Source: a virus
Direction: 5' to 3' (one strand)
Virus genome (UHGV): UHGV-0180966
DNA length: 36,655 nucleotides
The position numbers are program-made. Shown here piece after piece: positions 30,001 through 33,000 of the stretch (position 1 is its first letter; each line of letters starts with the position of its first letter).

Positions 30001-33000
30001 CATGAATGCTCTGAATACAGCGGTCGCAAGACAGGAACGGCTTGGGACGTCTGCCAATCAAAGCCTGCTTACATCCTTGCGTAACCTACGTGAAGAATTA
30101 GCAAACCCTGCAACTGATTTGGATGTTACGTTTGATCTCTTGCGTCAGCACAGAACAGCATTTAGATCTAATGTTCAGGGAGATGCTATGGTCTTCCCCA
30201 ACCAGGCAAAAGCAGCTACCAATATGGTAGAGAATGCAATGTCAAAAGACCTTCGTAACGCAGTTGCTAAAAACCTCGGTGCATCAGACGCAGCAAAATA
30301 CCTTAAAGCAAATTCCGATTATGCAAACGTTTATAATAAGGTGCTTAATAAAAACATTGCCAACAAGCTCAACAAGGCAAGCAGTGAAGCCAGTCCTGAA
30401 CTTATAAATACCGTTGTATTAAGCAGAAAACCATCTGACGTGAAACGAATCTGGAGCGCATTGGATGATAAAGGGAAAGATGCTATGCGTGCAGCTTACG
30501 TCAGCAAAATAGCGGAAAAGGCCGGGGACTCTCCAGCCAAGTTCATCACTGAAGTTAATAAGCTGAAATCTCAGTCAGGCGGTGAAATTTACAACACTAT
30601 TTTTTCTGGAAAGCACATGAAAGAACTTGATGCTCTTCATGAAGTTCTACAGCAAACAGCAAGATCAGACACCGCAAATGTAGTAACTCAGACGGGGCAA
30701 TCACAAGCCAACAGGATAAGGACGATTGGCGCAACTGCGACTCTTGGAGTATCAATGGGGATTGAGGCTGGTTTTGGTGCAATGATGCGTTTGTATGAGT
30801 CCAAAGCAGCAAGGAATGCGCTCTTACGTCTGGCAAACACTAAAGCTGGAACGCCAGCCTATGAAAGAGCGCTGAATAACGCCGCAAATGCCATCAGACC
30901 AATACTTGCCAATGATGCAACTGATCGCTAAGGGTTGATGTCATGGATGTTGTTAATTGCGAATGGAATCGCGGAACTCTTTGCTTGATAGAAAAGGATC
31001 TGTTCTCCTTAACTCATCATAGTTTTTATTAAACTTTCTTGCTTCACCTGGGTATCTGTTGAACAAAACATTGCAGAAAAAAGAGAGCAATAACTCACAT
31101 ATGAATGCTAATACCCTGAAAAATAAAGGTATAAAAAGAAGGGAAGGTTCATTGAAGTCTCTATTCCAAACAAAATAGACAATCATCCCGACATACCAAA
31201 TTGATATCCCTATACTGATGATTGTTCCAACAGAGGTAACTACGATCCCGATTAAGTCGGACAGTCTGTTTGCCAGTAACTCATTTGAGTATCTTGCAAT
31301 CATATACCGCCAACATTTTGCAATATCATCCTGATCTGTAGAGTCTTCTGGAATAGCTAGGCTTCTACATATTGAAGTAGCTCTTTTTTTCTCAACTCTT
31401 TTTGAGAGCCATCCATTAAAGAGATACATCAACACCTGCGTTGCTATTCCTGCACCAAGTGATATCAAAGACATCCCCAAAAATCGCCATCCTGGAGATA
31501 GTGACTGGTATTGCCAAACAAAAAAAATTAAAAAACCCAATGAGCCTATGACATAGGCTGATGTATCGCTATATATATCTATTTTTTTCATTGAGTAGCC
31601 ACTCCTTAGTTTTGTGCGGTATGAAAAATTTAAATCAGGCCTTCATCGGTGAGTTTGCCGACAATCCACATCTCACCCTCGGCGTAGAACATGGCTCGCC
31701 GGTAACCATCCTCAGCTTTTAAGCTCTTGCAATCTTCTCAGCGCATTTACGCACAACTCGCGGTATCGTCTCTTTCAGCTCATCCCACGAGTTGACAAAC
31801 TCCATATCAAGAGCCTGAACAAGAGACTTCTGTATCTCGCTGCGCAACTGGTTGGTTTTTGCATCCTGAGAATCCCAGGTATCAAACCCGGTAACTTCAC
31901 GGATATCTATCGATTCCTTAACCACCTTTGCAACCTGAATGAAATGACCACTATGACCAATCCTACCTTCTGTACGCTCAAGCATCCGACTAACTGCTGC
32001 GTTAAGCTCCACAAAACTTGCCGCACCAATGTTTCGCAACTCGACCTGTCGCTGGGTGATAAAACGATCAATGACGAGAAAGTGGAAATAAGTGCTGTAC
32101 TGCTCGGCGACATACACCGCCAGATGGAGACTTAGCCACGTTTTCCCATTCCTTCCTCTCGTTGTTTTTAACGGAATAATACCAGTCTCCTCTTCACAAA
32201 CACGCATGAAGTCTTTGCAGTCATCCGTTTTCAGTATCTGAGCAAGATTTCTTGGTTGAAGGCCGTTATCAAATCTCCATCGGTTCATTTGAACGGTTAG
32301 TGTTGACGCATCGATATACTCATCTCTGGTGAACTCGACTTCACCGTATGGGAACTCTAAAGTCTGCACTTTCATATCTTTTTCTCCAATTAATTACCTC
32401 ACTTAAATTATATTCCTAATTTATTTGTTTATGCAACCATTAATACGCAAAATTAGAGCAAATTAGACTTTTTAGGTGTTTGCGTGTGAACAATCTCTAG
32501 CCATGCCATCACTCCAAGTTAGTGTATTGACATGATAGAAGCACTCTACTATATTCTCAATAGGTCCACGGTGGACCCATGTTGTGAGGTGAATATGAAA
32601 GGAATGAGCAAAATGCCGCAGTTCAATTTGCGGTGGCCTAAAGAAGTATTGGATTTGGTCCGCAAGGTGGCGGAAGAGAATGGTCGGTCTGTTAACTCTG
32701 AGATTTATCAGAGAGTAATGGAAAGCTTTAAGAAGGAAGGGCGCATTGGCGCGTAAAGTTGAAGCCCCAACTGCGGGAGCAGTCAGGGCTTAAATCGCCA
32801 GTAAATTTTGAGGAAAAACTGACATGAAAAGTATAGCAACAGCAGTATCTACTATCAACGTGCCATTCCACGGCGCAGAGCTTTATGTCGTCAATCACAA
32901 CGGCGAACCGTATACCCCAATGAAACCTATCGTTGAGGGAATGGGTATGGATTGGGCTTCACAGTTTACAAAGTTAAAACAAAGATTTGCTAAAGGTATT

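What the first reader, a model, noticed from the sequence alone, without database searches (positions are those of the whole stretch)
30953..32375. KilA-N protein plus 4-TM membrane protein replacing mnt/sieA at the immI hotspot: candidate exclusion or defence module
In P22 the segment between gene 16 and arc carries sieA and mnt. Here arc, ant, Pant, the arc operator and an mnt-operator-like palindrome are retained, but the reverse-strand genes are a 218-aa protein with a KilA-N-like N-terminal domain and a 212-aa protein with four predicted TM helices. The pair is co-oriented, AT-rich relative to the structural genes, and has its own candidate sigma70 promoter. KilA-N domains occur in prophage abortive-infection proteins such as BstA, and small multi-TM proteins in this position are typically superinfection-exclusion factors. 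I cannot assign either protein to a named system.
Basis: partly seen in the sequence, partly recalled or inferred. Interest (0 to 1): 0.8.

Follow-up and report, generated by a model that had tools for sequence, protein, structure and literature searches.

The report
Known SieA plus unrelated KilA-N gene
The two genes are not a new defence pair: the membrane protein is the already-characterised type B SieA exclusion protein, and its neighbour is an unrelated DNA-binding (KilA-N fold) gene, shared with Jersey-like Salmonella phages, that has replaced the mnt repressor gene in a P22-like phage that can no longer lysogenise.

Summary
Both ORFs are real and lie at the stated coordinates, and arc, ant, Pant, Pmnt, the arc operator and the Mnt operator are retained.

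The 212-aa membrane protein is SieA. It is 211/212 identical to the type B SieA of E. coli prophage HS1, which Leavitt et al. 2024 showed excludes P22-like phages. It carries the family motif FxRYPxEAxxFNK.

Only mnt and orf59a were replaced. The first four mnt codons remain as a scar.

The gene and its promoter region are about 86% identical to a gene found in more than 330 Jersey-like Salmonella siphophage records. It is absent from 5,426 complete E. coli genomes.

The pair is not conserved. About 188 E. coli prophages have this sieA without the KilA-N gene. About 15 of 20 metagenomic contigs carrying the identical KilA-N protein pair it with an unrelated lipoprotein instead.

The phage has an internally deleted cI and no integrase between tailspike and abc2. 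The KilA-N protein is most likely a DNA-binding regulator used in lytic growth; that function is inferred.

The parts
30953..31591 (-). sieA, type B superinfection-exclusion inner-membrane protein (212 aa)
   Evidence: phrog_7745 SieA-like, E 1.6e-20. 28% identity to P22 SieA, E 2e-24. Precomputed Pfam PF26849 SIEA. 211/212 identical to the E. coli HS prophage HS1 protein, which Leavitt et al. 2024 tested experimentally. Motif FNRYPGEARKFNK at residues 177-189 and four hydropathy peaks.
31592..31614 (-). last 23 bp upstream of sieA (RBS region) still shared with E. coli sieA loci; the left recombination junction lies at about 31614/31615
   Evidence: The alignment with the HS1 and strain 'numer 3' loci is identical up to this point and unrelated beyond it. 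The native sieA promoter region (within the 106 bp cloned by Leavitt et al.) is therefore largely replaced.
31629..31694 (-). scar: remnant of the 3' end of a Rha/ANT-type gene inside the 127-bp spacer
   Evidence: 86% identity over 66 bp to the 3' end of the Phage_pRha+ANT gene at the edge of L006 and L007. No terminator-like site lies between the two genes.
31719..32375 (-). 218-aa KilA-N/APSES-fold DNA-binding protein with an uncharacterised helical C-terminal domain
32376..32492 (-). Jersey-derived upstream region of the KilA-N gene (27% GC): candidate promoter with -35 at 32436-32431 and -10 at 32412-32407, plus two AAATTAGA direct repeats at 32450-32467
   Evidence: Very high identity to phage Ent1 through this region. 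A promoter is annotated at the equivalent place in phi135. Repeats; GC.
32493..32504 (-). remnant of mnt: its first four codons (ATG GCT AGA GAT); the right recombination junction lies at 32492/32493
   Evidence: Identity with P22 begins here. Sequence read. The same junction occurs in L005-type contigs.
32527..32577 (.). retained P22 immI control region: Pant (32527-32555, +), Pmnt (32560-32532, -), arc operator (32532-32552), Mnt operator (32562-32577)
   Evidence: Promoter scan. 100% identity with P22 across the operators.
32595..32756 (+). arc
   Evidence: Pfam Arc E 2.7e-30. Start inferred from the alignment with P22 arc.
32824..33555 (+). ant-type gene (243 aa; P22_AR_N domain, C-terminus unlike P22 Ant)
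   Evidence: PF10547 E 1.5e-44. phrog_524 anti-repressor Ant E 4e-76.

Best explanation
The interval holds two independent genes with separate histories, joined by recombination. It is not a two-gene system.

(1) sieA type B. [quoted passage not shown] In the published model it interferes with the gp20/gp16 ejection-protein conduit. That function was shown for a protein differing by one residue. Here its native promoter has been cut away, so it is probably transcribed by read-through from the upstream gene (inferred).

(2) A promoter-bearing cassette encoding a KilA-N/APSES-fold DNA-binding protein with a helical C-terminal domain. The cassette is shared with Jersey-like Salmonella siphophages. 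It replaced mnt and orf59a, leaving four mnt codons and an orphan Mnt operator. The cassette sits downstream of the retained Pmnt.

The phage itself has an internally deleted HK022-type cI and no integrase in the sequence held, so Mnt had become dispensable.

The KilA-N protein most likely acts as a DNA-binding regulator, probably dimeric, that serves lytic growth. This could be control of its own divergent promoter region, or binding to phage or host DNA. It is unlikely to be a lysogen-protecting defence protein. The DNA-binding fold is shown; the regulatory role is inferred.
For: SieA identity:
-.
- Leavitt et al. 2024 (PMC10883804): HS1 SieA fully excluded P22, L, MG40, MG178 and LP7.

Independence of the two genes:
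- This sieA lies next to gene 16 in about 188 E. coli genomes. In the two loci inspected it is followed by an Arc-family mnt-type gene or by an HTH+S24 repressor.
- The KilA-N gene gives no blastn match in 5,426 E. coli genomes.
- The identical 218-aa protein occurs in 21 P22-like contigs. About 15 pair it with an unrelated 161-aa lipoprotein and about 5 with sieA.

Recombination scars.

Jersey origin:
- About 86% nt identity, including 117 bp upstream.
- 336 full-length homologues among isolated phages; 335 of the 342 matching records are Salmonella phages, and those inspected are Jersey-like.

DNA-binding fold. 33/60 relatives hit phrog_129 'transcriptional regulator'.

Loss of lysogeny: 317-bp cI deletion with frameshift and no integrase between tailspike and abc2.

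The mnt slot holds other DNA-binding regulators in related prophages.
Against: - No experiment addresses the 218-aa protein, and no DNA target is known.
- The C-terminal domain has no assigned family, so an effector activity cannot be excluded.
- Its N-terminal half varies while the C-terminal half is nearly invariant. That pattern would also fit a specificity domain joined to an effector, as in defence or counter-defence proteins.
- sieA expression after loss of its promoter is unverified. The promoter scan found no promoter in the spacer.
- The window is an incomplete metagenomic contig with no terminal overlap. An integrase elsewhere in the genome cannot be formally excluded, although its usual position is empty.
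Confidence: 0.7

Rival explanations
1. The two genes form one exclusion or defence module: the KilA-N protein senses or regulates and the membrane protein executes.
For: They are co-oriented and 127 bp apart, with no predicted terminator between them, so they are probably co-transcribed here. The position is a known hotspot for exclusion genes.
Against: The pair is not conserved. Each gene occurs widely without the other. SieA alone is sufficient for exclusion. A recombination scar separates the two genes.
Confidence: 0.04
2. The 218-aa protein is a single-gene abortive-infection or defence protein that works like BstA: a KilA-N domain recognises foreign phage DNA and the C-terminal domain aborts infection.
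For: It has a KilA-N-type N-domain like BstA. It has a two-domain architecture with a variable N-half and an invariant C-half. Some relatives fuse nuclease domains, and one relative's N-terminus hits PADLOC PD-T4-3.
Against: The 218-aa protein has no PADLOC hit at E <= 0.1, while PADLOC's BstA model scores true BstA at 1.9e-124. BLASTP and hhalign find no similarity to BstA. It is found in Jersey-like siphophage records and in a cI-deleted phage, never in 5,426 E. coli genomes. It is not placed next to a prophage repressor.
Confidence: 0.08
3. The 218-aa protein is a lytic-cycle counter-defence or competition factor. It would bind DNA, or mimic or titrate a host or prophage KilA-N-type protein, to protect the phage or to interfere with resident or co-infecting phages.
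For: It is widespread among Jersey-like phage records and has been acquired by a P22-like lineage that lost lysogeny. It moves as a promoter-bearing cassette between unrelated phage types. Its N-domain is variable.
Against: There is no homology to any known anti-defence protein and no experimental data. The same facts fit a plain regulator.
Confidence: 0.15
4. The 218-aa protein functionally replaces Mnt as the repressor of Pant, or as a regulator of the immI region.
For: It occupies the mnt slot, divergent from Pant and downstream of Pmnt. In other P22-like prophages that slot holds different DNA-binding repressors, either an RHH Mnt type or an HTH+S24 protein.
Against: The gene and its own control region come from phages that have no immI region. 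In the sister lineage ant is lost and the Mnt operator is decaying while the gene is kept unchanged. The phage has no lysogeny to maintain.
Confidence: 0.06
5. The 218-aa protein is a cell-wall amidase or endolysin, as many database records label it.
For: phrog_6095 is labelled 'amidase'. Many Jerseyvirus records say amidase, and one says endolysin.
Confidence: 0.01

Closest known systems
Type B SieA of E. coli HS prophage HS1 (EcHS_A0321; Leavitt et al. 2024, mBio, PMC10883804)
   Same: 211/212 residues identical. Same length and same position after gene 16 in a P22-like genome. Same FxRYPxEAxxFNK motif and the same N-terminal extension with an extra hydrophobic segment.
   Different: One conservative substitution (L62I). 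The upstream promoter region is replaced beyond 23 bp. Here the gene is carried by a phage that cannot lysogenise, not by a prophage.
P22 SieA (type A)
   Same: Homologous (28% identity, E 2e-24), with the same locus and the same motif. Leavitt et al. found types A and B gave indistinguishable exclusion phenotypes.
   Different: P22 SieA is 164 aa and lacks the roughly 30-residue N-terminal extension and its extra TM segment.
Jerseyvirus gp04-type protein (e.g. vB_SenS-Ent1 SEP1_gp04, phi135_56; phrog_6095)
   Same: The 218-aa protein is 72-94% identical at protein level and about 86% at DNA level, including the upstream promoter region. It has the same two-domain layout.
   Different: In Jersey-like phages the gene sits alone on the opposite strand between the portal and head-morphogenesis genes, with a terminator. 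Here it sits in the mnt slot, has a different C-terminal tail (AEKIARA) and lacks that terminator.
BstA (prophage BTP1 abortive-infection protein; Owen et al. 2021)
   Same: [quoted passage not shown]
   Different: No detectable sequence or profile similarity, and the 218-aa protein has no PADLOC hit although PADLOC's BstA model recognises true BstA. 218 aa against 307 aa. Different genomic position. Found in Jersey-like phage records rather than prophages.
APSES DNA-binding domains (Mbp1, Swi6, Bqt4) and Deinococcus DdrC
   Different: This is fold-level resemblance only. The biology is unrelated, and the C-terminal domain belongs to no sequence family.
P22 Mnt (ribbon-helix-helix repressor of Pant)
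   Same: Same slot and orientation, downstream of Pmnt; a DNA-binding protein.
   Different: No homology: KilA-N fold against RHH, 218 aa against 83 aa. The Mnt operator is left without its repressor.

Membership tests
SieA (superinfection exclusion, P22-like phages), type B | Sequence homology to P22 SieA or the SieA family models | tested here: met
   BLASTP E 2e-24; phrog_7745 E 1.6e-20; precomputed PF26849 SIEA
SieA (superinfection exclusion, P22-like phages), type B | Conserved cytoplasmic motif FxRYPxEAxxFNK | tested here: met
   FNRYPGEARKFNK at residues 177-189; motif as defined
SieA (superinfection exclusion, P22-like phages), type B | Gene lies between the gene 16 and gene 9 homologues of a P22-like genome | tested here: met
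SieA (superinfection exclusion, P22-like phages), type B | Multi-TM protein with a roughly 30-residue N-terminal extension carrying an extra TM segment (type B) | tested here: met
   Hydropathy peaks at 8-26, 37-55, 113-131 and 151-169. The alignment with P22 SieA starts at residue 44. Simple hydropathy only; TMHMM was not run.
SieA (superinfection exclusion, P22-like phages), type B | Blocks DNA injection by P22-like phages | not testable with these tools
   Shown by Leavitt et al. for HS1 SieA, which differs by one residue
KilA-N domain (PF04383) / APSES fold | Scores above the Pfam gathering threshold | tested here: not met
   16.8 bits against a cut-off of 23.8 for this protein. However, 42 of 60 homologues match at E <= 0.01, several above the cut-off, best 7e-18.
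KilA-N domain (PF04383) / APSES fold | APSES/KilA-N three-dimensional fold | tested here: met
KilA-N domain (PF04383) / APSES fold | Binds DNA | not testable with these tools
   Inferred from the fold only
BstA abortive-infection family | Matches the BstA family model over both domains | tested here: not met
   The 218-aa protein has no PADLOC hit at E <= 0.1. Positive control: BTP1 BstA scores 1.9e-124 against PADLOC's BstA model. BLASTP and hhalign are negative.
BstA abortive-infection family | Encoded in a prophage, typically downstream of the repressor gene | tested here: not met
   Located in the immI/mnt slot. Absent from 5,426 E. coli genomes. Carried by Jersey-like siphophage records.
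BstA abortive-infection family | Cognate anti-BstA (aba) DNA element at the 5' end of the gene | not tested
   No sequence definition that could be transferred to a non-homologous gene
Mnt/Arc ribbon-helix-helix repressors | RHH (Arc-type) domain | tested here: not met
   No Arc/RHH hit for the 218-aa protein. Only four mnt codons remain.
Phage antirepressors (Ant / KilAC / P22_AR) | ANT (KilAC), P22_AR or ORF6C C-terminal domain | tested here: not met
   No such Pfam hit. hhalign and BLASTP against the window's Ant are negative.
Cell-wall amidase / endolysin (database label) | Amidase catalytic domain or fold | tested here: not met

The most novel reading that the evidence does not exclude
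The KilA-N/helical-domain gene is a self-contained, promoter-bearing cassette that moves between unrelated phages growing lytically: Jersey-like siphophages and P22-like podophages that have lost lysogeny. In this reading it acts as a weapon rather than a housekeeping regulator. For example, it could be a counter-defence protein that neutralises prophage KilA-N-type sensors such as BstA, or a factor that interferes with resident or co-infecting phages. The variable N-domain would set target specificity.
Probability: 0.12. Interest if true: 0.6.

Novelty: new member of a known kind. Interest (0 to 1): 0.22.

Why it matters
The proposed new exclusion or defence pair dissolves. One gene is a published, experimentally characterised exclusion protein in its normal place. 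The other is a member of an uncharacterised but already catalogued KilA-N family.

Three things remain of modest value:
- A clean, scar-documented case of the immI maintenance repressor being swapped for a gene from Jersey-like phages, in a P22-like lineage that has shed lysogeny (cI deleted, no integrase seen, ant lost in sister contigs).
- Evidence that the 'amidase' or 'endolysin' label on more than 100 Jerseyvirus records is wrong. This matters because these phages are used for Salmonella biocontrol and their genomes are screened by annotation.
- A widespread Jerseyvirus gene of unknown role that is now a tractable target, with a high-confidence model and a defined promoter region containing repeats.

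Tried and rejected
- **PADLOC for both proteins:** no hits.
- **NCBIfam:** nothing meaningful.
- **PDB sequence searches, single sequence and profile:** only noise.
- **afdb50 fold library:** unavailable.
- **C-terminal domain shared with the window's Ant?** This was suggested by shared phrog_2812 hits. hhalign and BLASTP rejected it.
- **161-aa alternative partner as another SieA type?** Rejected: no similarity and no TM segments. It is a lipoprotein.
- **HS1 mnt-slot protein related to the 218-aa protein?** Rejected: it is an HTH+S24 repressor.
- **Second word-indexed homologue search with the diverse profile:** added little.
- **Literature searches for Jerseyvirus + KilA-N and for recent work on KilA-N phage proteins:** nothing functional beyond BstA.
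- **Terminal-overlap test for a circular contig:** negative.

Full report
**Observation**

The window is a metagenomic contig (ENA ERZ1034905 NODE_344, 36,655 bp). It carries two co-oriented reverse-strand ORFs at exactly the stated coordinates: 30953-31591 (212 aa) and 31719-32375 (218 aa).

They lie between the gene 16 homologue (29105-30931) and arc/ant/tailspike. These were identified by Pfam as Arc (E 2.7e-30), P22_AR_N (E 1.5e-44) and Head_binding (E 3e-65).

In P22 the same interval holds sieA, orf59a and mnt. Alignment with P22 shows that the arc operator (32532-32552), the Mnt operator (32562-32577), Pant and the divergent Pmnt are all retained without change. The descriptive part of the finding is therefore sound.

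**The 212-aa membrane protein is SieA**

- It hits the PHROG 'superinfection exclusion SieA-like' family (E 1.6e-20).
- It aligns with P22 SieA at 28% identity (E 2e-24).
- It carries a precomputed Pfam SIEA annotation.

Leavitt et al. 2024 (PMC10883804) describe three SieA types. [quoted passage not shown] Type B has an N-terminal extension of about 30 residues containing an extra transmembrane segment. Its exemplar is encoded by prophage HS1 of E. coli HS.

The authors cloned that HS1 gene and showed that it fully excludes P22, L, MG40, MG178 and LP7. The window protein is 211/212 identical to the HS1 protein. It has the motif at residues 177-189 and shows four hydropathy peaks.

The same gene lies next to gene 16 in about 188 complete E. 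coli genomes. So sieA has not been replaced.

**What was replaced is mnt (and orf59a)**

[quoted passage not shown] Identity with P22 resumes at 32493, which is the fourth codon of mnt. The reverse complement of 32493-32504 reads ATG GCT AGA GAT, giving the residues MARD.

The 878 bp in between contain three parts:
- a 66-bp remnant of the 3' end of a Rha/ANT-type gene;
- the 218-aa gene;
- 117 bp of its own AT-rich upstream region.

The 218-aa gene and that upstream region are about 86% identical to a gene of Jersey-like Salmonella siphophages. The 5' half of the gene and the promoter region are much more similar than that.

In those phages the gene stands alone on the opposite strand between the portal and head-morphogenesis genes. 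It has an annotated promoter and terminator there. That promoter corresponds to TTGCAT-18-TATAAT at 32436-32407 in the window. Two AAATTAGA repeats lie just upstream of it.

**The 218-aa protein**

Its own Pfam KilA-N score is below threshold (16.8 against 23.8 bits). An exhaustive profile search found 139 representative clusters. Of 60 diverse members, 42 hit PF04383, with a best E-value of 7e-18.

From established knowledge (Iyer et al. 2002, as cited), the fungal APSES domain is considered related to the viral KilA-N domain.

The C-terminal helical half is nearly invariant within the close family, while the N-half varies. The C-half has no Pfam family.

The widespread database label 'amidase' or 'endolysin' has no support from sequence or fold.

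**Not BstA, and not a pair**

PADLOC contains a BstA model that scores true BstA from phage BTP1 at 1.9e-124. The 218-aa protein gets no PADLOC hit at all. BLASTP and profile comparison with BstA are also negative.

The distribution argues against a two-gene system:
- The KilA-N gene has no blastn match, even in the sensitive mode, in 5,426 complete E. coli genomes.
- Among isolated phages it occurs in 342 records. 335 of those are Salmonella phages, those inspected are Jersey-like, and none exceeds 93.5% identity.
- The identical protein is encoded on 21 metagenomic contigs, all P22-like and always in the mnt slot with the same right-hand junction.
- In about 15 of 20 of those contigs the downstream gene is an unrelated 161-aa lipoprotein (lipobox LLVGC). 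Only about 5 have sieA.

Each gene therefore occurs freely without the other.

**Context: a P22-like phage that has lost lysogeny**

The immunity region is of the HK022 type at 98% identity. Its cI gene has a 317-bp internal deletion that removes roughly residues 30-135 and shifts the reading frame.

No integrase or gtr genes lie between the tailspike and abc2, which is where P22 and BTP1 have them.

The genome is studded with homing endonucleases and carries an intein in its primase/helicase. Sister contigs have also lost ant, and their Mnt operator is decaying.

A maintenance repressor is dispensable in such a phage. This explains why its replacement was tolerated, and it argues against a role in protecting lysogens.

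**Mechanism**

Shown:
- SieA identity.
- The recombination anatomy.
- The KilA-N/APSES fold.
- The independence of the two genes.

Inferred:
- sieA is now transcribed by read-through from Pmnt and/or the cassette promoter. No terminator or promoter is predicted in the spacer.
- The 218-aa protein is a DNA-binding regulator, probably dimeric, serving lytic growth. Support comes from its fold, from phrog_129 'transcriptional regulator' hits for 33 of 60 relatives, from its near-universal presence in the Jersey-like records found, from the control region that travels with it, and from the fact that the mnt slot holds other DNA-binding regulators in related prophages.

Alternatives remain possible but have no positive evidence. 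These are a counter-defence or competition factor, a BstA-like abortive protein, or a replacement for Mnt.

**Verdict**

The finding is largely ordinary. It is a known exclusion gene plus an uncharacterised but catalogued KilA-N-family gene, brought together by mosaic recombination.

The residual interest is the KilA-N cassette shared between unrelated phage types, and the correction of its annotation.

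Noticed in passing
window 2111-2666 (-): The HK022-type cI repressor gene has a 317-bp internal deletion and a frameshift. The N-terminal fragment and the S24 peptidase domain are in different frames. The phage cannot maintain lysogeny.
   Followed up: yes
window 35072-36655 and 1-2100: No integrase, excisionase or gtr genes lie between the tailspike and abc2, where P22 and BTP1 have them. The contig has no terminal overlap and is about 4 kb shorter than related contigs, so the genome is probably incomplete.
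   Followed up: partly
window 4258-7164 (+): The 968-aa primase/helicase (Toprim, AAA_25) is interrupted by an intein-like insert (Hint plus LAGLIDADG domains).
   Followed up: no
window 1475-1891 (-) and 25317-25862 (+): There are free-standing HNH homing-endonuclease genes, one (NUMOD4+HNH_3) inserted within the head-completion/tail gene row. Related contigs carry further HNH and HNH-AP2 genes, including one between arc and the tailspike.
   Followed up: no
window 33617-35071 (+): The tailspike is only 484 aa: a P22 head-binding domain followed by a receptor-binding part with no Pfam assignment. Related contigs have an 895-aa tailspike instead.
   Followed up: no
window 32824-33555 (+): The Ant-type protein is 243 aa, with a P22_AR_N domain but a C-terminus unlike P22 Ant (300 aa). 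With cI destroyed, its antirepressor role is moot.
   Followed up: no
L005:8679-9164 (+), and the same gene in L006-L009 and L011-L013: In most contigs carrying the identical KilA-N protein, the sieA slot holds a 161-aa predicted lipoprotein (MKKALLIIPFLLVGC...). It has no family assignment and could be a different envelope-level exclusion factor.
   Followed up: partly
L015:4757-5398 (-), E. coli HS prophage HS1: In HS1 the mnt slot holds a CI-like HTH + S24 peptidase repressor rather than an RHH Mnt. The slot accepts different classes of DNA-binding regulator.
   Followed up: partly
phrog_6095 and Jerseyvirus records (e.g. NC_019539 gp04, OP793478): The 'amidase' or 'endolysin' annotation of this family is propagated through many phage records, but sequence and fold contradict it.
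   Followed up: yes
distant relatives P0040, P0049, P0071, P0075 and others: Some family members of about 300-375 aa carry an N-terminal GIY-YIG/T5orf172/MUG113 nuclease domain. One (P0049) hits the PADLOC PD-T4-3 model through that domain.
   Followed up: partly
window 35803-36501 (-): the ORF listing gives a 232-aa ORF combining DUF2737 and a Phage_pRha domain. The gene call on record is shorter, at 181 aa.
   Followed up: no
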